A stretch of DNA of 64,000 bases from Geosiphon pyriformis uo1 (Eukaryota; Fungi; Glomeromycota): the NCBI GenBank assembly GCA_016748015.1, contig JAAOMT010000436.1:424703-488702 (forward strand), in the 5' to 3' direction. The notes under the pieces are model-generated. The model saw only the letters and a list, made by a program, of their open reading frames with translations. It ran no database searches and was not told where the DNA came from. The position numbers and the translations under genes are program-made. Below, piece by piece: positions 1 to 64,000 of the stretch (its first letter is position 1; each line of letters starts with the position of its first letter).

Positions 1-1734
1 TACATGAGGACTGAACACCAGAGGCACCAATTTCACAAAACTCAATTTTTTCAAAATATCTGAAACCTGGTCTGCTAAAAGCTCCAAAAAGCATTCCAGA
101 AAAGCCAATTAATCAACCAAACAGAAACCACCAAGAGATTTAGAAACCAATGGGACAAGTTTTGCATTTGAAGATAAGCCAACACCAGAAGAAATCGACG
201 AAACCACATGAGAAAAAGAACCACCAGCCATCTGGGCCCAAGTTTTCCCATTGAAAGAAACTGGGCGAACAATTGGTGTATGCTTCTTCTTATATATGTT
301 TGGCAAACGGACCCAATCCTGAAGAGTTATTAACCACTTATCATAAACACCAGAATTCCCACCCAATAAACACTCTGTAGAGATATGATCAAACTGTTTG
401 CAATAAACACAACGGGCCAAAGAAAGACCAGTCCAGTGCAAATTTACACTCTTAAACACTGGAATAGAACCAATAGTAGCCAATTTAGATGTCTCATCAA
501 CAAAACACACAATCATATATCTATCATGCACATATGAGCTGGGATTATGGCCAATAAAGCAAGTCTTTCTATCATACAATTCCAACAAATCAGAAAAATT
601 ATGAGCCATCATATCAACTAAAAGAGTATAAAGCAATGTCTAATAATAATCTCTCACTATCCACAATTTCTTGTTATTTACTGCCAATGCAACATTAACA
701 GAATCTTTACCCATGAAAACTAACCATTTAGAAGCAACCAAGCCAGCCACATCTGATGAATTAAATTCTATTAAAGCTTTTTGCCAAAGCCCAATCAGTT
801 GTATCCTAATCGAAATCACCTGACCAAATTTAGAAAATACTGACTCAATCACTGATCTGGAAAGATCCACTAGGATCTTCTTGACAATCATCTCTTAATT
901 TAAATGGCTGTTTACTTTCCTCAAACCATTATTAACAAAAATTTTCTCACAAATTGCCAATTTTTTTGTCTTTTTCATATTAAACTCAGATGTAAATGAA
1001 GCTCTGATGATCTCTGAGAATTTTGAGGGAGTTAACACTCCCCCAAAACCATCAATTTGATAGAAAATTTTTTTAATTGCAATTAACTTATCATTATTTG
1101 TTTTTCTAGGCACAACAAACAACTCAATATCTAATGCGAATAATTTTACTGGCTCAAAGCTCCTTTTTTCCAGAACACATGATTTAACAAGTGGCAACAG
1201 ATTGGACTCAACAAATCTAGACTTAGGAAGCACTATTTCAGTGTTGTCGTTACTCAAGTTTTTGAAGAATGGTGTTTTTGGCAGCTGTTCTAAGACATAG
1301 GTTCTCATATGCATTTTCTTAGGAGTTGTATCATCCACCATATTATTAGTCTTAGAAGTATTGGAGTTCATGTAACTCATCTCTTCAGCCACTATGTTGT
1401 TTATGTTCCCAACATTGGATATTCTACTAATGCTGATATCTTTACTCTCCATCTCACTACCCTAAGACATCTTACATTCATCACAATCACTCTGTAAAAC
1501 GTGGCCAGGAAGAGGTCTGACCAATGAATCTATCACCATGCCAGTAACATCTGGTTTTTTTGATTTCTTATAAGAGGGACCCCAAGAGTACACACTCTCA
1601 ACATGCGCTTTTTTTTTAGCAACAGCCCAGGATCTCAATCCAGCTGAACCAGAACCAGAACCATCAGCAAAAGAGCCTACTGGATCCATTGCAACAAAAT
1701 TGAGTATGTTGGAAAAAATAACTAAAGGTAGCAA
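1..1734 (-). mobile_element. Decayed non-LTR retrotransposon (LINE) ORF1/gag-like copy; continues off the left edge
   Basis: ORF pieces 1462-1734, 895-1452, 640-891 and 109-636 are all in one frame, separated by single stops. They align with ORF1 of the LINE at 60947-64000 (FEPVKLFALDIEL vs FEPVKSFALDVEL; zinc knuckle CVYCKQFDHISTEC vs CAHCKQFGHVLVNC). Probable ATG at 1689. Confidence 0.92.
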
Positions 1735-16397: not shown

Positions 16398-17313
16398 TCC
16401 AGTCAAAAATTTTATATAAAATTAGTGACATTAGTATAAAAAGCTACCTTTTGACTTGTATTTTTAATTAACCAACCCTTGTACTTAATAAATTTCTTCG
16501 TTAAAAGGATTTATAACAAAACTAAAGTGAACTTGTAACGTAAATCCCGGTGAATGATGAATAAGATCTCGGTCCTCTCATGGGCAACCTTTCCACTCGA
16601 CACGGTTATTGTTCTGATAATAGCCTTAATAAGTCACACTTGAGTTCAAAAATGTAAAGTATCTGGAAAACTTTAATGATCACTCTTACATAATCCTCAA
16701 TGCTATCTATCAAGAGAAATCCCTCAAGAGTCTTATAGAGTATTGAATTTAAGCTCTAACCCAAGAAATCAGAAATCTGCATACTGAGGCGTCGTTGTCA
16801 TCAGCAAAGAGGGTAAATCGAAAATTAATAATATAAACTTATTTTTTATCTTATATAACCAACAAGAAATTCTGAAATCGATACAATAGTGATCTTTAAA
16901 CACATACACGATTAATTGATTTTAATTTATATTAAGTTGATAATAAAATTTACAATTTTTTTTTAATTTTTTAAAGTAAAGGTTTTTGTTAGTTTAAATT
17001 ACAATTAATTATTGTTATTTACAAAAATAAAAAATCTTTAATAATTACAATTTATATACTTTTTATGTGTGTAATTATTTATTTATTTTAAATTATAATA
17101 AAAAAATAAAATCAACAAAAGAATATATAACTATTTTTTTTTGGTTTTTATTATTTAATTTAGCATTATATTATTTTACAATTTGTTATATTATTTTATT
17201 TATTTAATATTAATTAAAAAAATTGTTATTTGTATATTAAAATTTTTCAATAAATATTAAATGTAAACTATTTTCAAAACCAATTATTATATTAAATTTT
17301 AATATATTAATTT

Positions 17314-17422
17314 GTGGCCTTGATTGGCCCGAGTGGCTAGTCACATGTGGACAGTGCATGAATCGCGTCTAGTTTAGAACAGGTAGCGATTGGGCTTTAC
17401 TCGTTAAAATAAAAAATAAAAA
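17314..17422 (+). mobile_element. Stand-alone LINE 3'UTR module (extreme 5'-truncated insertion or SINE-like element) with A-rich tail
   Basis: About 80% identical to the reverse complement of 56503-56620 apart from one internal indel. Followed by AAAATAAAAAATAAAAA and flanked by the direct repeat ATATTAATTT (17304-17313 and 17423-17432). Confidence 0.85.
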
Positions 17423-18274
17423 ATATTAATTTTAAATAATTTTATTATTAAAATTTTGTTATTAAAACAATTGTTTTTTTTATAGTATTTATTTTTTGTG
17501 TAATTATTATATTATTTTGTCTTATTAATAATTTTCAATAATTAATTTTAAATTTAAAAATTTAATTAAATATAAAATTGGTTTAATAATTTTAACAAAA
17601 TTAAATAACTAATTAACTTTAAAATTATTAAATTAAATTTTTTGTATTAATGTTAAAAATTAGAAAACCAAAAAGATGTAGTTAAAAAACAATCTTATAA
17701 CTTAATTAGTTTTTCTGATATTTTAAATGTTAAAAAACTAGTCTTATTTTTGTATAATATTTTAAAAGAAATAAAATCTTATACTGTCATATTGTCAAGA
17801 TAATAAAAATAAAAATACAATAAAAAATAAAACTTCTATATTTACAAAATTTGGAAAAGGCTCTATATTGTCAATTAATCAATCGTAACAGTTTGAAAGA
17901 TGCAATTATTTTAAAGAGGAATCCTCAAACTATTTAGTAGAGTTACTTCTAATGAAACATTTTAAGAGTCATGATAAAAACGGATTTACAAAGATAATCG
18001 AAGGGCCGGAAGGTAATGGATCAATCGTCTCAATTTGAGGTTTGATGGCTCGAAAACACGATGGAATCATTTAATTATTATCGGATTACGAAAAAACACG
18101 GAATCAGAGTCTACAAAGGAAGAATTTCCAAGATAGAGTTGAGTAAATAAGTAATCAGAATGTGATGTCACACTTCAAGTATTTGCGACAAATGTAAAAT
18201 ACCTCAAATAGAATTCCGTTCACCTAAGAGTTCAAGTCGCAGCGATTGAGGATACTACCAAATAGGCAAGCCAA

Positions 18275-53900: not shown

Positions 53901-56476
53901 TAATACCAAAAATTTTAAAAATGTTAAAAATTCCAAAATATTAAGAATTTTAACAATAACTTAAAATTTACTAAAAATTTTAAAAATTTTATATTATAAC
54001 GATTTTTTTTTCTTATCTATTTTTAAAATTGCAAAATTTTTTGTAATAGTTTTTAGTTTTGCTTTTTTATCTTTATTGTATTTTGTAATATTTTTTTGAT
54101 ATTTTTTTTAATATTATTAAAAATGTTTTTAGTATTTTAGTATTATTATTTCTGTTAAATTAAAGTTTGCTAATTTGTAACAGTATATTATTATTATAAT
54201 TTAAAAATTTAGCAAAAAATTATAAAATAATATAAATTATTCAATTATAATATAGCATAATAATAATCTTAAAAAAAAAATAATTAATATAGTAATAAGT
54301 ATTATCTTATAATAGCAATAAGTATTAGCTTATAATAATAGCAAATACCAACTAATAATAATGGCAAACACCAGATTGAAATATTAAAAAAAGAGTATTA
54401 CAATGTATTTTTTTGTAAAATTACAAACATGTATATATATAGTAGCTTTAATATTAAGAAAAACAACAATCTATTTAACAATTTATTTAACAGTTTTTAC
54501 TTTAATTATCTTTTAGTCTTTATTTTAAAATAAATATTCAAAAAAATTTTTAATCAAAAAAAAATAAAAAAATATTGAAAACTAAATTATTACAACTTAA
54601 AATGTTAAGAAACTTATTGTGTTATTTATTAAATAAAACCATTATTTATTAGCTAAATCTTTTGGAAAAATAATTTCTGATCAAAATTATTTATGTTGTT
54701 ACTAATTAATAAAAAAATTTATTGTAAAAATTAAAAAAAACACTAAAAATTATTAATATTTATGTTTTTAAATTAAAAAAACACAAAAATAGTCTTAAAA
54801 AAAACTCTACCATTGTGAGTAAATTTTTGAATTAGCTTTTAAGAAAAAATATATAAATATATACACAATAATCAAAAATCAAAAAATAATTTATATTGTA
54901 ACATTAAAAAAAAGTTTTTAATATAACAATAATATTATTATACAAATAAAATTAAAGAATCTACAAAAAACTAATTGTAATTAAAACAGAATATTAACAT
55001 TTAATATATTAAGAAAAATATTTTATAATAATAATAATATTTTTAAAAATTTTTTTTATTGCTATTGTTTTTAACAACTAGTTTTTATTGATTAAAAAGA
55101 ATAATATTTAGATTTTTTTTTAACCAAAAAAAGATTATTATTTTTTATAATATTTTTAAGACCAAATTAATCAATTTTTTCTGTTTTTAAAATTAATAAT
55201 GTAATTTTTTAAGTTGATAATCATATTTGTTTCATTTTTTATTTTTTTAATTCTTATTATTATTAATATTTTATTATTATAATATTTGGTTTTTATAGGT
55301 TTTTGGATCTTGTTATTATTAAAACTAATATTTTACACAAATATTATATCTAATAAAAACTTCTGAATATTACTATTGCTATTAGTATTAAAATTTAGAT
55401 TATTTGTCTATTGACTATAAAATATTATTATCCTTTTTTTTAAGTTATTTATTAAGTATATTATTGGTTTTAAATATTTTATGTCTTTTTTTATTAATAA
55501 AAAGTCTTATATTAAAGCTTTTACTTTTTGGCTCTTTTTTTTGTTGCTTTATTGGTTATTTCTATTACTAAATTTGTAGATTGAATTTCTTAAAACTTTA
55601 AGTTTTAAATTTGGCTGTTTTGATTAAATCTATTATTAAGCTTATTAGCTTCTTAATTGTTTTGATTATTATTTTTCTAAATAATAATGTTAGCAAAAAA
55701 TTTTGTATGAAAAAAGACTTGTTTTTTATAAAATATACTATTAATAATTTTTTTAATTTTTTGGTTAGTGTTTTTAAGAATATTGTTTATCTTAGATTTA
55801 AGATTGATTTTGGTAAAATAAACTATAATAAGATATTAACTATTAAGTTTTTTTTAAGTAAAAATATTATTAAATATATAATTATTTTATAATATATATT
55901 AAGTTCTAATATTAAAAATAGTATTAAGATAATTAAATTATTTTTTAGTAAATTTATTTTTAATTTTAAAAATTTAAATAGCATTATTAAAAAAATTAAT
56001 AAACTGGATTTTAACTTTTTTTGTTTTAATGTAGTATTGTTTTAACTGATTTAAATAGCTAGTTATATATAAAAAATACATAATATATATATAATTTTGA
56101 TTATTTAATTTAATATATTGTATTAAATTGTATTTAAATCTTGTTTATTAAATATTATTACAGAATAATTTTTTTGTATATTAAATATTAATATCTTATT
56201 TTAATTGCAATTAGTTTATTGTAAATTTTTTAATTTTATTTGTATAATAATATTAATATTATACTAAAAACTTTCTTTTTAATGTTGTAATATAAGTTAT
56301 TTTTTAATTCTAATTGTTATATATATTTATATACTTTTTTTTAGAAGCTAAACTGAAATTTATTTGCTGTTTAAAGATTTTAAGACTATTTTTGTAATTA
56401 TTTAATGTGTTTCTCTAATTTAAAAAGATAAATATTAATAATTTTTTAATGTTTTTTCTAATTTTTACAATAAAAC
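50990..56476. other. ~5.5-kb AT desert of hypermutated transposon remains
   Basis: Nearly devoid of G/C with no credible ORF; contains an alignable LTR relic at 54192-55030. Confidence 0.75.
54192..55030. mobile_element. Heavily AT-eroded relic of the same LTR family as 62996-63695
   Basis: Colinear by eye at both ends. Left: tattataatttaaaaatttagcaaaaaattataaaataatataaattattcaattataatatagc vs tattatggtttaagaatttagcaaaaagaatcataaaataatacaaactattcaatcataatatagc. Right: aagaaaaatattttataata vs aagaaaatcatcccgtaaca. Confidence 0.88.
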
Positions 56477-56620
56477 TTTTTTTTTTTTTTTTTATTAACG
56501 CATTTAACGAGTGTAGCCCAATCACTATCTAGTACATAGAACCAAACTAAGAGGCTCAAACTAAATGCGACTCACGTACTTTCTACATGTGGCTAGCCAC
56601 TCAGGCCAGACAAGGCAACA

Positions 56621-59600
56621 CTACACATCTATAACTACCCGTACACTGCCACCCAGACCAGAAAAGAAACAAAAAGACTTCCGACAACCAAAGCTAACAG
56701 CAAAAGAATTGGCCAAACCAAGCAATCTCACAATACCATCAGACAAAACCGAAGACACACCACAAGGGAGCCCAGAAACAACACCAACATCACAGACCAG
56801 ACCAGCCTTCTCCATCACCACCTGGTGGCTGGCTCTAGCCAACCATACCTTAGCACGATGTAAACCAACAACGAACCTGACATAATCAACAATCCTAGCA
56901 GTGGCCATCTTTCTATCCTCAAAAACATCGCAAGCCTCCTCATACTACTCCTCCAGCACAAACCCTTTGCACACCAAAGTGTACAGCCCAACATCAATGG
57001 AACATTGAGACAAAATCCACAACACAGCAGAAGCAGAGAAACCACCAGCCAAAGTTGACCAACGAGCAGAAGCCTCCGCCAAAATCTCACCACGAATGCC
57101 AGACTCATGAACACAAGTAAAAACATGGTCAGAGAACTCCACCTCACCACAAAACAAACACAACACACTAGGGTAGCATTTATCATACAACCTCTTCCTA
57201 ATGGCCACCAGCAACCTCCTATGCACAGCCTTCATAACATAAGTGCGAAATGATGAGAATGCGCGGCTAGTGAACCCAGCAAGCATATGAAAATCAAGAT
57301 GTCACACCTTCACTGTGACAACCCAGTCTATGCAACCAATCATCGCATCTGGTACTACATCACAACCAGGCCCAGCTTCCCAACGAGCACAACGAATTGA
57401 TCAAAAGATATTTCTGACAAAATGACAGGCATTACCAGAAACAGCGACACTCTCAGCAACCAAAAAATGTTCACGCACATCGGCACAAAGGGAAAAGGGA
57501 GACCCAGAGGCAGCCCCAGCAGCCAAGTCAGCTCTCACATTACCAGGAATTCCAGAGTGTCCTTTCACCTTAACCCAATTCACACTAAGATCCTTATCTC
57601 TGACCAAATTGAAAATATGACGCCTTTTCAGCCAGCATTGATTATGGAAATCAGGAGCAACCAAAGACATCTCAGACACACATGCGTCAATGGCAGCCTG
57701 GCTGTCAAGATGCAACACCACAGTACTTGAAGAAGGAATACACTCCAAAACCAAAGTGACAGCCTATAACTCAGCCATAGTAGATGACAAAAGACCACGA
57801 ACAGCGACACCAATACTCATATCCAAGACCGGAAAGTACGCAGCAGTACCACAGGTGACCTCAGCAGAGCCTGCATTTCTCAAAGACCCATCCGTGAAAA
57901 CTTCAAAAGAGTCTGACCAAATGTCATGCAATCCATCTTTAACCGCAGAAAATTCCCCAGACCCCAAAATGTCCAAACCAAGCTTCTTAGCTGAGCCAAC
58001 AGAACCAGAAAATGAGTAACCCTGACCTTTCAAAAACTCAGAAGAAACCATGAACCAATGAGGCACAGGACCACGCGGATCCAACCTCTTCCAACGACGA
58101 AAAGTTTTCCAATCCAACAAAACACCTTTCTTATCAAAAAGCCAATCACCAAAAACAACACCAAAACATTTAAGAGATTTGACCGAATCAAAATACAGAG
58201 ACTTTTCAAGAACAGAGGACAACGGGAACCAACCAGGACTACGAAATGCAGTGGGGAGGTTGTTTACCAAAGTAAGCTCATTGCCCAGAAAGATCTTCAC
58301 CATCCCTGCCAAAAAATTGTTCACTGGACTAACATGCAACCTGACCGGAAACTGCAAAGGATCCAAAGGAGCCCAACCAAGAACCTGTAGGTCCAAAAAC
58401 CTATGTCTAAACAAATGCCCAAGAATGCCAAAAGCATTAGAGAATGCCATCAAAGCAGCAACCTTCCCTTCAGACTGCACCTGCTCAAAAGGCTTTAGGC
58501 CATACAATGAGAGATGATGCAAAGCAGCATCAGGAAAATCACGGAGGAGACAAGCCTTGGACCTAAGACCCTTTCTAACCAAGACATCCCACTTGCGACA
58601 AACATTAGATGAGACAAAATTGAACTGAGTACGATAGCTAACAATAGGCTGCAAAACAGCTGACACCAGATACGAGAATTGTTTGTCTGTAATAGCCTTC
58701 TTAAGCACAACATTGACGAAGAAACGTACATCTGCATGAGCCTTGGCAACACTCGGCTTGGAGAGCCCCTCAGTTGACAGAAAAATACCCAGATACTGAT
58801 GTGCTTCCCCTTTCTTGGCAACAGAGATTGGCTGACCACAAATGTTCAGTGAAGCAACTTTAACGCCCTGATTGATGAGAATAGCCACCGTCTTCTCACT
58901 ATTGATAGAAATGTAATTGATCACAAAAAATTCACTGGCAATGTTCAGAGCATATTGAGTAGAAGCCTGACAATTTCCAACCCAGATCGTATCATCGACA
59001 AATGCACCAGCCGAAAAATACGATGTCAAATCACTACTGCCCTCAATTCTGCCAGATTTCGAAACAAACTTAGTATCAATCTGGTACCCACACAATTGTT
59101 CGTGCCTTTTAACCTCACACAAAAGCAGATCATAAAAAATTCTCCAAAGAAGTGGCAAAAAGACCTCACCCTGGTCCAGCCCATCATGCACCTTATAACC
59201 ACCAGACAGACCAAAGTCAGTCATTACTCTATTAACTCTATCCTCATGAATACCACCAAAAAACCTTATGAACCTCTCACACATCTTGACACGCCGCAAA
59301 CTAGCTCTTAAATAATGCCACCCAACTGAATCGTAAGCTTTCCGCATATCTTGCAAGACCAACCATAACTCCCTATCCTTCTCAATGGCATCCTCAATTA
59401 CCGAACCGACAGCAAACACCAGAGATTGTGTTGACGTACCCTTCAGCACCGAAAAGTTGTCACCCTGAAGAACATTGAACTTGCTACAAGCCATTGAAAT
59501 ANNNNNNNNNNNNNNNNNNNNNNNNNNNNNNNNNNNNNNNNNNNNNNNNNNNNNNNNNNNNATCCACACTGGACTTCACCTCTTCAGGCAACAAAACCAG

Positions 59601-60950
59601 ATCATCATCAACTATCAAGTGATCCAACACAACCTTGTGAAAAGGCTTTTCCAACACACTCCTGATCATACTACCCTTATCCAAACAAAAATTATCCATG
59701 CGCTTCTCAATCGCCTTCCTAACCGAAGCTTCCTCAGCCAACTTTGACTCAAACATCTTCGACCTCCTGTAATCTCTATGAACCAATGACAAATGCCTAA
59801 CAACAACATCAGATTTAACACCTGAGCCAACCAAATCCTTGAAAGCATGAGCCTTCGCATCATCCAGAGTTGACCATTTACTCACAAGACGATCAGTGCT
59901 CAGCAAGTCACCAGAGCAAAATTTTTTGACAATCTTGGCCACCAACAATTCCAGACCAAAAAACCTAGAAGAATGTTTGTTTCTCGAACACTTGAATTCA
60001 CTAAACCAATGCCTCAAAAATGTCACATCAGCAGAATCCACCACAGCTCCCACCAGAACTGCCCATATAGCATCCATATTACCACATATTTCGGCACCAG
60101 AGAACACCTCACCCAAAGACAAAAGTTTAGCTGACGAAAGATCCTTAAACTTAACCCATCCAACACAGTCAGCATTTCTGATTTTGAACTTCCAACAATC
60201 CTTATTCGCCTGCTTGTGCAAACTGTTCAATTGTACATCTAGAAGCCCACCCAAACCGACTGAAACCACAACTGTCTTGTGATCGGTGTCAAAGAAATCC
60301 GAAACAGAGACAACTTGATGACCAGCAATAGCAAAAGACAAATTACCACCAACAAAAATGTAATCAATCGTTTTCCCAACCCCTCTTGAATTGCTCCACA
60401 TATAAAAATTAGCCAAATGATGACCAACAAATGAATTGACCAAACCCAAACTCAAACAAAACTTGAAACTAGCACTTCTACCAGATCCATTCTCATTAAG
60501 GTCCCCACCCAAGACAACAAAATTGTTGGAATTGACCGCCTTTACAATGAGGGTGTTAATCTCAGAAGCCTGACCAAATCTAGCTCCAGAGGAGGCACCA
60601 GCATACAACCCCAAAACAGTAACCAAGAGCTTGCTCTTAAACAGGAGCCGAACAGAAACAACCCGACCAGGAATCTCCTCCACCTTAGATACATGACGGG
60701 CCAAAGAAGTGTTCATAACAATTGCAATCCCAGCACCCATGAAACCCTTATCCAAGCCAGAAGAAAATACTTGCACTCCATCAAACTTATCCTTTATCCA
60801 CGGCCCAGAAGAGGACCTCAACTTAGTCTCAGTGATAAAAGAAACCATATTTCCTGAGTTCACATGCCAACGAACAACATCTGCTTGTTTCACAGGAACA
60901 TTGATACCCCGAACATTGCACATAGTAAATTTCCAAACCAAACTACTCAT
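56621..60950 (-). pseudogene. LINE ORF2 polyprotein with 4 premature in-frame stops
   Basis: APE (CNVRG, TETK, GGDLN, IDYIF, TDH), RT (QDMRKAYDSV, QGE, AFVDDT, YLG), RNase H (FTDGS, AEL, DSQ, VKGHSG..GNVRAD) and zinc motif CLFCGEVEFSDHVFTC. Stops at 57764, 57401, 57302 and 56945. N-gap at 59502-59560. Confidence 0.93.
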
Positions 60951-63900
60951 TGAGATGGAGGAAAAGCCAACGAACCCGATCCAGAACGCAGATGATCCAA
61001 TCTATCCAAGACTGAGCGAACTGAAGCCTCAAGAGCCATCATATTCGATTCCAAACTGCCAATCTTGGCAGTCAAAACCTTAGAACTGCTCAGACTGAAA
61101 TCAACAACCGACCCACCAACATTGGGAGAAGAAGAGACAGACGACAACAACATGCCATCCAACTCCAAACCTGGGTTCATATCTGAAACAACGGCAGTTG
61201 GAGACACCAAAGGAAGAGCTGAGGGAGAAGACGCCAATGGCACCAAGTCAACGAAACTTAACTTCTTTAAAATAAGTGAGACTTGGTCTGAGAGAATTTC
61301 TATGGAGCATTCCAGCACAGCTAGACGACCACCTAGATCAGTGGTACCAGATGAGGAGGAATCCATTGAGAAAGCCATCGAACCAGAGACCAAACTGACA
61401 CCAGGAGCACCTGAAGAGACAATGCGAGAGAGGGAACTGCCTGCCACTTGGGCCCACGTCTTCCCACCAAAAGAAACTGGATGAGCAACAGGAGCCGACT
61501 TCTTCTTATATATCCCAGCTAGACGAACCCAATCTTGCTCAGAAACCACCCTTCTTCTTCGAACACCAGAATACACACCCAAGGAACAATTGACCAAAAC
61601 ATGACCAAATTGTTTACAATGAGCACAACTGGCCAAAGAAAGACCAGCCCAACGCAAACTCACATTCCTGAAAACTGGAATGGTACCAATAGCAGCCAAT
61701 TTAGATGCCTCATCACCAAAACAAATTACAGCACATCTATCACAAACATATAAACTAGGGTTATGGCCGATATAACAAGTCTTCCCACCATATGATTCCA
61801 ACAAATTGGAGAGGTCATGAGCATTAGTGCCAACTGGAAGAGTATAAAGTAAAGCCCGATNNNNNNNNNNNNNNNNNNNNGAGACCAAACTGACACCAGG
61901 AGCACCTGAAGAGACAATGCGAGAGAGGGAACTGCCTGCCACTTGGGCCCACGTCTTCCCACCAAAAGAAACTGGATGAGCAACAGGAGCCGACTTCTTC
62001 TTATATATCCCAGCTAGACGAACCCAATCTTGCTCAGAAACCACCCTTCTTCTTCGAACACCAGAATACACACCCAAGGAACAATTGACCAAAACATGAC
62101 CAAATTGTTTACAATGAGCACAACTGGCCAAAGAAAGACCAGCCCAACGCAAACTCACATTCCTGAAAACTGGAATGGTACCAATAGCAGCCAATTTAGA
62201 TGCCTCATCACCAAAACAAATTACAGCACATCTATCACAAACATATAAACTAGGGTTATGGCCGATATAACAAGTCTTCCCACCATATGATTCCAACAAA
62301 TTGGAGAGGTCATGAGCATTAGTGCCAACTGGAAGAGTATAAAGTAAAGCCCGATGCTGATTCTTCGATACCCACGTTTGTTTATCAATATTTGCTTTTG
62401 CCACTCGGACCAAATCCTTTCCCATGAGCACAGACCATCTAGCTGCGACCAAATCAGCCATCTCAGATAATTCATATTCTACCAAGGCTTTTTGCCAAAG
62501 ACCAATAAGCTGCACTTTGATTGAAACAATCTTGCCAAACCTAGAGAACACCGCTTCAATTGCTGATTTGGGAAGATCTATTGGAATTTCTTTGACGATC
62601 ACCTCCCGATCTGAATGGCTGTTTACTTTTCTTAGATCATCATTTACCAATATTTTTTCACAGATCGCCAACTCTCTGGCCTTAACCAAACTAGACTCAC
62701 TTGTGAAAGTTGACCTAATGACTCCAGGAAATTTTGAGGGAGTTGAAGCACCCCCAAAACCGTCAATTTTATAAAAAATCTTTTTGACTTTAAACAACTT
62801 ATCATTATTTGACTTTCCAGACACAGCTGACAACTCCACATCTAAAGCGAAAGATTTTACTGGCTCGAAACAATGACACTCTAAACCACATGACTTGGGT
62901 GGCGGCAACTGATTGGACCCAACAAATGTGTGAGGAGAGAGTTCCAAAACACTATTGTTGTCGTTTTCCAGGTTGAAAGAAGGTTGTTTCGGCGGTATTA
63001 TGGTTTAAGAATTTAGCAAAAAGAATCATAAAAATAATACAAACTATTCAATCATAATATAGCACAGTAATAATCTTAGAAAGGTAATGATTAACATAGT
63101 AGCAAACACCATCTCGCGATAGTGGCAAGCACCAGTTCACAATAGCAGCCAACACCCACTGGTGATAGCANNNNNNNNNNNNNNNNNNNNAAGAAACCTT
63201 TAAAATCAAAAAGAAATGAAAAAGAATATTTAAAACAGAACTATCACAACCCAAAGTATTAAGAAACTTACTTGTATTATTTATTGAATGAAACTATCAT
63301 TCATCAACTGAATCCCTTGGAAGAATAATCCTTGATCAAGATTATTCACATTGTTACTAATTGATAAAAGCTTTATTGTGAGAATTAGAAAAGCGCTAAA
63401 GACCATTAACATTCTGTGTTTCTAGATTAGAGAAACACATCAGACAATTGCAAGAATAGCCTCAGAGAAGACCCCAGACAGTGGGTAGATTTCAGTTCAG
63501 CCTCTGAGAAGAAGTACATAAACACACACAACAATCAAGAATTAAAGAATAACTTACATCGCAACAGTAAAAAGAAAGCCTTCAGTGTAACAGTGACACT
63601 ATCACACAAATAGAATTGAGGAACTCACAAAAGACTGATTGCAATTAAAGCGGGATATCAGCAATTAAATATAACAAGAAAATCATCCCGTAACAGCGGC
63701 TTGCCTAAGACATATGTCCTCGTCCTCGTCTTCCTCGGAGTAACGTCATCCATCAAGTCGTTGTTTCCAGAGGCATTGGAATCGATGTAACTAGTTTCTT
63801 CAGCAACCAAGTTTTCCATATTCTCCAAGTCGGACACCTCGCTGATGTTGTTACTTTCGTTCTCCACTTCACTACCCCAAGACGCCTTACATTCACCGCC

Positions 63901-64000
63901 ATCAGCCAGCAACAGGTCTGTATACAAAAGTCCAGCTGGAGAATCTACCACAGTACCAGACATGACAGGTTTCCTCACTTTCTTGAAAGAGGCACCACGA
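60947..64000 (-). pseudogene. LINE ORF1 (RRM-like + CCHC knuckle + coiled coil), split by an LTR insertion
   Basis: VIVKEIPIDL..VFSRFGKIVSI..ALVEY is RRM-like; knuckle CAHCKQFGHVLVNC. Removing 62996-63699 restores ...YVLGKPPKQPSFNLEND.... Confidence 0.9.
62996..63695. mobile_element. LTR (solo LTR or gap-collapsed LTR retrotransposon) inserted in LINE ORF1
   Basis: Ends TATTATGG...CCGTAACA, i.e. the inverted termini TGTTACGG/CCGTAACA with two transitions. 4-bp TSD GCGG at 62992-62995 and 63696-63699; 20-N gap at 63171-63190. Confidence 0.9.

What the first reader, a model, noticed from the sequence alone, without database searches (positions are those of the whole stretch)
17304..17432. Isolated ~95-bp GC island is exactly the LINE 3'UTR and reveals a conserved three-way-junction RNA
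Seen: inside an AT desert, 17313-17408 (+) aligns with the LINE 3'UTR (reverse complement of 56503-56620). The match starts right at the base after the ORF2 stop codon, and the island has an A-rich tail and a 10-bp flanking direct repeat. I count 16 substitutions, and all either keep pairing or lie in loops or junctions. Helices (island vs LINE): P1 CGAGUG/UACUCG vs UGAGUG/CACUCG; P2 CAUGUG-GACAG-UGCAUG vs CAUGUA-GAAAG-UACGUG; P3 AAUCGC/GCGAUU vs AGUCGC/GUGAUU, extended by GUCU/AGGU vs AUUU/AGAU. The only indel is the distal end of P3. A small 5' GCC/GGC hairpin precedes P1. Known: stringent-type LINEs recognise a 3' RNA structure, which SINEs borrow. Inference: this is an undescribed structured RNA module (RT-recognition element, possibly self-processing, given truncation exactly at its 5' edge) that moves as a minimal unit or was exapted. 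It keeps 5 CpGs while its neighbourhood has lost nearly all G/C.
Basis: partly seen in the sequence, partly recalled or inferred. Interest (0 to 1): 0.78.

Follow-up and report, generated by a model that had tools for sequence, protein, structure and literature searches.

The report
Folded tail of a fungal LINE
The GC-rich island is a short copy of the tail of an abundant fungal jumping gene (a LINE), likely left by an ordinary truncated insertion, and the tail is predicted to fold into a compact multi-arm RNA starting at the stop codon that likely serves as the handle for the element's own copying enzyme.

Summary
The island (17313-17408) is a real homologue of the 3' UTR of an RNase H-bearing LINE of Geosiphon pyriformis. 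It starts at the base after the family's conserved ORF2 stop and has an A-rich tail and a 10-bp direct repeat (chance about 3%). The structure is real: differences keep pairing more often than chance, and the UTR persists across subfamilies with 33-50% ORF2 identity. With the stop codon included, a four-way junction is favoured, closed by a helix from the stop codon to the poly(A). Five of six distant soil-metagenome relatives with complete ends have such a closing helix, though their sequences are unrelated. No two-sided compensatory change exists between the two window copies; one pair of such changes is suggested by unlinked contig consensus. No Rfam family, ribozyme or tRNA head was found, and the contig tables showed no cluster of stand-alone copies starting at the stop. 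Best reading: an ordinary 5'-truncated LINE copy carrying an undescribed structured tail, likely the ORF2p recognition signal. Self-processing, a SINE-like unit and exaptation are unsupported. A termination-coupled switch remains an open, testable idea.

The parts
17304..17313 (+). left copy of 10-bp direct repeat (likely target-site duplication); last T is shared with base 1 of the UTR
   Evidence: chance 2.7%
17313..17408 (+). stand-alone copy of the LINE 3' UTR, from a subfamily other than the window's LINE
   Evidence: in-frame reading shares the DW..EWLVT variant with P0253
17317..17320 (+). 5' strand of the closing helix of the four-way fold (pairs with 17392-17395)
   Evidence: pair probability 0.64-0.78
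17344..17360 (+). hairpin P2, common to both folds; loop varies between subfamilies
17361..17391 (+). arm P3, common to both folds; 22 nt shorter than in the LINE
17398..17403 (+).
17406..17422 (+). A-rich tail
17423..17432 (+). right copy of the 10-bp direct repeat
56477..56493 (-). poly(A) of the window's LINE
56494..56620 (-). 3' UTR of the window's LINE; with the stop codon it folds as a four-way junction (z -3.78)
56621..56623 (-). ORF2 stop codon TAG; its AG pairs in the closing helix
56624..61001 (-). ORF2 (endonuclease, reverse transcriptase, RNase H), broken by stops and an N gap
60947..64000 (-). ORF1 region, interrupted by an insertion and running off the window

Best explanation
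The island is a copy of only the 3' UTR of an abundant RNase H-bearing LINE family of Geosiphon pyriformis, likely inserted by ordinary target-primed reverse transcription that stopped early, and the UTR is predicted to fold into a compact multi-arm RNA that likely acts as the recognition signal for the element's ORF2 protein. Shown: homology, start at the base after the conserved stop, A-rich tail, flanking repeat, conservation of the UTR across subfamilies, pair-keeping substitutions. Inferred from other LINEs: ORF2p binds this fold, primes on the A tail at an AT-rich nick, and copies towards the 5' end; this copy ended at the UTR edge.
For: Homology and stop. Repeat 2.7% by chance. Family size: 610 proteins at E<=1e-10, the 120 listed all Geosiphon, so very short truncated copies are expected (most LINE copies are 5'-truncated, 100-1000 bp: PMC3747384, passages). 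UTR kept while ORF2 diverges: loose ends at the UTR edge read as ORF2 ends of other subfamilies; two predicted proteins that run into the UTR have 44% and 33% C-terminal identity to the window's ORF2. Broken pairs fewer than random placement. Of 11 family variants shown in the common helices 9 keep pairing. Two loose-end consensus rows (13 and 8 contigs) carry matching two-sided changes at two adjacent P3 pairs (read by hand; linkage on one contig not shown). With the stop codon the LINE UTR folds as the four-way junction (-43.3 kcal/mol, against -38.2 for the three-way fold). A stop-to-poly(A) closing helix is present in 5 of 6 distant relatives with complete ends (P 0-0.013 each; L052 lacks it, P 0.59) and in the window LINE (P 0.02). 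Precedent: 3' UTR structure recognition in stringent LINEs and R2 (PMC12180492, passages).
Against: No binding or retrotransposition data. Only two full Geosiphon sequences were in hand; no genome was available. Most pair-keeping changes are transitions that pass through G-U, which deamination produces half the time anyway. The fold choice depends on context: with 60 nt of upstream sequence the two folds are about 50:50. Covariance models of the Geosiphon UTR and of the relatives' UTR do not find each other (0 hits in 16 loci; no hit at either window copy), so the parallel is architectural only. Truncation within one base of the stop codon is a coincidence under this reading. The family variant at UTR position 2 (10%) breaks the extended closing helix.
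Confidence: 0.62

Rival explanations
1. The UTR is released as a defined short RNA (5'-to-3' exonuclease blocked at the fold, cleavage near the stop, or self-cleavage) and moves as a minimal SINE-like unit.
For: 5' edge within one base of the stop and of the fold. Summed contig depth over the UTR is 4.6 times that over the ORF2 end. A four-way junction with a loop-tail pseudoknot is possible on paper with no broken pair in the island.
Against: The depth excess is explained by divergent subfamilies that share the UTR but not the ORF at 80% likeness; displayed loose ends are ORF2-like and no place where many molecules begin was reported. No Rfam match, no tRNA head. RT stalling would not by itself give a 5'-edge boundary (inference). 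The flavivirus dumbbell, a four-way junction with pseudoknot, is reported not to resist XRN1 efficiently (section title, PMC8266583 outline).
Confidence: 0.13
2. The UTR is a translation-coupled switch: the closing helix holds the stop codon; a terminating ribosome would melt it, freeing the 3' strand to pair with the H1 loop (pseudoknot or the reader's three-way fold), which would be the form that the new ORF2p binds in cis.
For: Two folds of equal energy in both copies; complementarity for both is kept in both copies and in subfamily consensus rows; the closing helix begins in or beside the stop codon in 5 of 6 relatives; 11-12 nt behind the A-site codon lie in the ribosome's entry channel (PMC13517186, passages).
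Against: GC-rich palindromic words give alternative pairings easily; no second fold was shown in the relatives; a 12% family variant breaks the loop-tail helix; no experiment.
Confidence: 0.12
3. The fold is a stop-codon readthrough signal that adds 19 residues to ORF2p.
For: UAG, 8-nt spacer, 8-bp stem, 1-nt loop, 6-bp second stem resembles the gammaretroviral arrangement (8-nt spacer); a second in-frame stop at codon 20 is kept in both copies, P0151 and P0253.
Against: The spacer is pyrimidine-rich, not purine-rich; most changes alter the peptide; relatives keep no common extension and L036 breaks the frame; no enzyme lies downstream.
Confidence: 0.04
4. The fold protects or processes the RNA 3' end (stability, polyadenylation) and is not the ORF2p handle.
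For: The closing helix ends a few bases before the poly(A) in the window LINE and 5 of 6 relatives.
Against: No U-rich internal loop and no Rfam match.
Confidence: 0.06
5. This copy was exapted by the host and is kept by selection in the AT-rich spacer between two convergent genes.
For: High GC and 5 CpGs in a 7-12% GC neighbourhood; all pairs of the four-way fold intact.
Against: An intact 10-bp repeat and CpGs fit a recent insertion; its differences from the window LINE are largely subfamily variants; no second genome to test conservation.
Confidence: 0.03

Closest known systems
3' tail stem-loops of stringent-type LINEs (eel UnaL2, silkworm SART1, monocot L1 and Chlamydomonas L1-1_CR tails; PMC3747384, passages seen)
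   Same: Conserved folded 3' UTR just before an A-rich end, kept while the protein diverges; short 5'-truncated copies are the rule.
   Different: Here the whole 118-nt UTR is predicted to be one multi-arm fold closed from the stop codon to the poly(A), not one hairpin; no SINE partner found; requirement for mobility untested.
Vertebrate A-clade R2 3' UTR pseudoknot-hinge-stem (PMC12180492, passages seen)
   Same: Tertiary 3' UTR fold in a non-LTR element; a loop-tail pseudoknot is possible here too.
   Different: R2 is site-specific with a restriction-like nuclease; this element has an APE-type nuclease, RNase H and poly(A); different topology; pseudoknot here only predicted.
Flavivirus dumbbell RNA (PMC8266583, abstract and outline seen)
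   Same: 3' UTR four-way junction with a pseudoknot, proposed to switch between translation and replication.
   Different: Viral; no sequence or Rfam match; an analogy only.
Gammaretroviral readthrough pseudoknot (PMC13517186, passages seen)
   Same: UAG followed by 8 nt and a possible H-type pseudoknot.
   Different: Spacer not purine-rich; only 19 unconserved codons follow; long inserted arms.

Membership tests
5'-truncated LINE copy made by TPRT | 3' end homologous to an autonomous LINE | tested here: met
5'-truncated LINE copy made by TPRT | A-rich tail and target-site duplication | tested here: met
   (10 bp, 2.7% by chance)
5'-truncated LINE copy made by TPRT | 5' ends of short copies spread over many positions | tested here: inconclusive
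   no cluster reported, but only 8 of 79 and 7 of 107 loose-end rows shown
Stringent-type LINE tail | conserved 3' secondary structure | tested here: met
   UTR shared across subfamilies
Stringent-type LINE tail | two-sided compensatory changes | tested here: inconclusive
   none between the two copies; two adjacent P3 pairs in unlinked consensus rows; 3 of 5 pairs in the relatives' non-homologous first hairpin
Stringent-type LINE tail | UTR required for retrotransposition or bound by ORF2p | not testable with these tools
   needs assay
SINE | head derived from tRNA, 5S or 7SL with a Pol III promoter | tested here: not met
   island aligns to the UTR over its whole length; ARAGORN 0 genes; no Rfam hit
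SINE | many copies with one fixed 5' end | tested here: inconclusive
   one copy in the window
Known self-cleaving ribozymes | match to a curated covariance model | tested here: not met
   no Rfam hit at either copy up to E 5; none in 15 relatives
Known self-cleaving ribozymes | self-cleavage in vitro | not testable with these tools
   needs assay
Gammaretroviral readthrough signal | UAG, 8-nt spacer, H-type pseudoknot | tested here: inconclusive
   geometry possible on paper, competes with other folds
Gammaretroviral readthrough signal | purine-rich spacer and a functional downstream frame | tested here: not met
Named LINE clade (L1, Proto1, Tad1 and others; names recalled) | placement in an RT tree with reference elements | not tested
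   no reference sequences in hand; tree holds only Geosiphon and metagenome rows

The most novel reading that the evidence does not exclude
A widespread clade of fungal RNase H-bearing LINEs locks its ORF2 stop codon into a helix that closes the whole 3' UTR; the terminating ribosome opens it and flips the RNA into a pseudoknotted form that the new ORF2p binds, giving cis preference, and the same fold can be released and copied alone as a minimal mobile unit.
Probability: 0.12. Interest if true: 0.82.

Novelty: new variant of a known kind. Interest (0 to 1): 0.42.

Why it matters
How LINE proteins pick their own RNA is known for a few animal elements only. This gives a 118-nt, sharply bounded candidate signal from a mycorrhizal-type fungus, and a recurring design (closing helix from stop codon to poly(A)) in distant relatives whose tail sequences are unrelated. 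That makes structure probing and binding tests easy. If the two folds are a ribosome-driven switch, it would offer a direct mechanism for cis preference. The stand-alone island itself is probably an ordinary truncated copy.

Tried and rejected
Whole genome: none held, so no genome-wide copy list. Rfam: 7 weak hits in the window, none at either copy; 0 in 15 relatives. tRNA: 0. Upstream AT desert as a hypermutated ORF2: deamination-aware alignment scored within shuffled range on both strands and both flanks, so the 5' boundary is not an artefact of decay. UTR patterns: 0 in viral, metagenome and prokaryote genome contigs. Protein-based and RT-pattern scans of viral contigs: none; genome contigs gave 2 matches, one with a weak tblastn hit, not used. 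Cross-searches with covariance models found no homology between Geosiphon and relatives' UTRs and no third copy in the window (best other hit E 0.058). Sequencing runs: no RNA holder listed; X3 gave 0 and 1 contigs, not evidence either way. PDB: only weak RNase H1 matches. A 12-nt identity between the window UTR and L055 was not supported by the model. A loop-loop contact in the relatives' UTRs is not kept in L036 and L051 (read by eye). Papers: no paper held all of 'arbuscular mycorrhizal, SINE, LINE, secondary structure, reverse transcriptase'; searches listed none describing this tail (listings only; PMC11952901 passages give only class-level counts; its supplements were not read and may list this family).

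Full report
Observation. The island at 17313-17408 matches the reverse complement of 56503-56620 (76 identities). The element at 56477-64000 (minus strand) has endonuclease, reverse transcriptase and RNase H domains and a poly(A). Its ORF2 stop is TAG 56623-56621. All listed homologues are from Geosiphon pyriformis (43 of 43; 112 of 112; the 120 listed of 610), and many subfamilies end at the same residue, so this is the true stop and the island starts at base 1 or 2 of the UTR. The 10-bp repeat is exact and arose in 2.7% of simulated junctions. The upstream desert is not a decayed ORF2.

Is the structure real? The folds were chosen after seeing the sequences, so these values are generous. 134 contigs fit the island and 1464 the LINE end at 80% likeness. 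Of 17 displayed UTR variants, 11 fall in the helices common to both folds and 9 of these keep pairing (95 rows not shown). Two loose-end consensus rows, of 13 and 8 contigs, carry matching changes on both sides of two adjacent P3 pairs, and the P2 loop is replaced while its stem is mostly kept (read by hand; the two rows are not shown to be on one molecule). Loose ends at the UTR's 5' edge read as the ORF2 ends of other subfamilies. Two predicted proteins that run into the UTR, P0151 and P0253, have only 44% and 33% C-terminal identity to the window's ORF2 yet nearly the same UTR reading. The island shares variants with these, so it likely comes from another subfamily and its 20% divergence is not decay in place.

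Which fold? P2 and P3 are stable in every context tried (0.93-1.0). With the stop codon included, the LINE UTR takes the four-way form, with the closing helix starting in the stop codon (-43.3 kcal/mol, z -3.78; three-way -38.2). With 60 nt upstream the two are about 50:50. The family variants do not decide between the folds.

Relatives. An RT-motif scan of soil metagenomes gave 120 loci, 117 confirmed as relatives at about 25-30% identity. 15 reach the ORF2 end (L020 left out, end unclear) and 6 of these reach a poly(A). In 5 of the 6 a helix joins the stop-codon region to the bases just before the poly(A) (P 0-0.013; L052 lacks it), as in the window LINE (P 0.02); several fold as multi-arm junctions. 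Seven of the 15 form a clade (98/87 support) and share a first hairpin with all 49 cells paired and two-sided changes at 3 of 5 outer pairs (5 of 500 shuffles as high; relatedness not controlled). Geosiphon sits on a long, unresolved branch, and the covariance models do not cross-match. The design recurs; the sequence does not.

Does it move alone? The UTR has 4.6 times the summed contig depth of the ORF2 end, but summed depth is no copy number and divergent subfamilies that share only the UTR explain an excess. No place where many molecules begin was reported, and the best-supported loose ends at the edge are ORF2-like (most rows hidden). There is no tRNA head and no Rfam family, and no third copy in the window. 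With hundreds of copies in the genome, and 5' truncation being the rule for LINEs (PMC3747384, passages), a truncation at the UTR edge can be chance. It stays the one point that favours a defined RNA end.

Mechanism. Most likely ORF2p recognises the folded UTR, primes on the A tail at an AT-rich nick and copies 5'-ward; this copy ended at the UTR edge (0.62). The window's LINE also joined its poly(A) at an A-tract of an older repeat. Binding is inferred from stringent LINEs and R2, where a 3' UTR pseudoknot is bound and needed (PMC12180492, passages; PMC12503042, passages). Rivals: a processed minimal unit (0.13); a termination-coupled switch, suggested by the two folds and the stop codon inside the closing helix, with 11-12 nt behind the A site covered by the ribosome (PMC13517186, passages) (0.12); a 3'-end stability role (0.06); readthrough (0.04); exaptation (0.03).

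Novelty. Structured LINE tails are a known kind, and this scan's own unchecked notes list several. I found no description of this tail in the searches (listings only, open-access library only). The multi-arm fold closed from stop codon to poly(A), recurring in a broad fungal LINE clade, is a new variant; the isolated island is probably ordinary. Interest 0.42.

Noticed in passing
window 62996-63695 (-): About 700-bp insertion in LINE ORF1, starting TG and flanked by a 4-bp CG-centred repeat (CCGC); likely a solo LTR. AT-shifted relics of it lie at 54192-55017 and 56158-56480 (72-83% identity), so the 51-56 kb AT desert holds decayed repeats and the LINE's 3' end inserted into one.
   Followed up: partly
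window 61386-61860 and 61881-62355: Exact 475-bp duplication across a 20-N gap in ORF1; likely an assembly artefact.
   Followed up: no
window 15-1489 (-): A second, diverged copy of the same LINE family (ORF1 region, about 70% identity) running off the window start.
   Followed up: no
L004:180-235(-), L005:6144-6199, L036:4650-4706, L051:2-57(-), L038:7255-7311, L009:7276-7332, L001:70-125(-): Conserved covarying hairpin right after the ORF2 stop in one clade of metagenome LINEs, with a CUAGUA-like apex; not in Rfam.
   Followed up: partly
L032:1-270(-), L076:1-196(-), L033:4989-5139: Another 3' UTR motif shared by three LINEs: a stem with apparent two-sided changes, a purine-rich internal loop and a variable hairpin (read by eye).
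   Followed up: no
L055:7660-7898: Strong closing helix from just after the stop to just before the poly(A), and a 12-nt word identical to the start of P3 in the window LINE.
   Followed up: partly
window 56561-56563 (-) and 17370-17372 (+): A second in-frame TAG 20 codons after the ORF2 stop is kept in both copies and in P0151 and P0253.
   Followed up: partly
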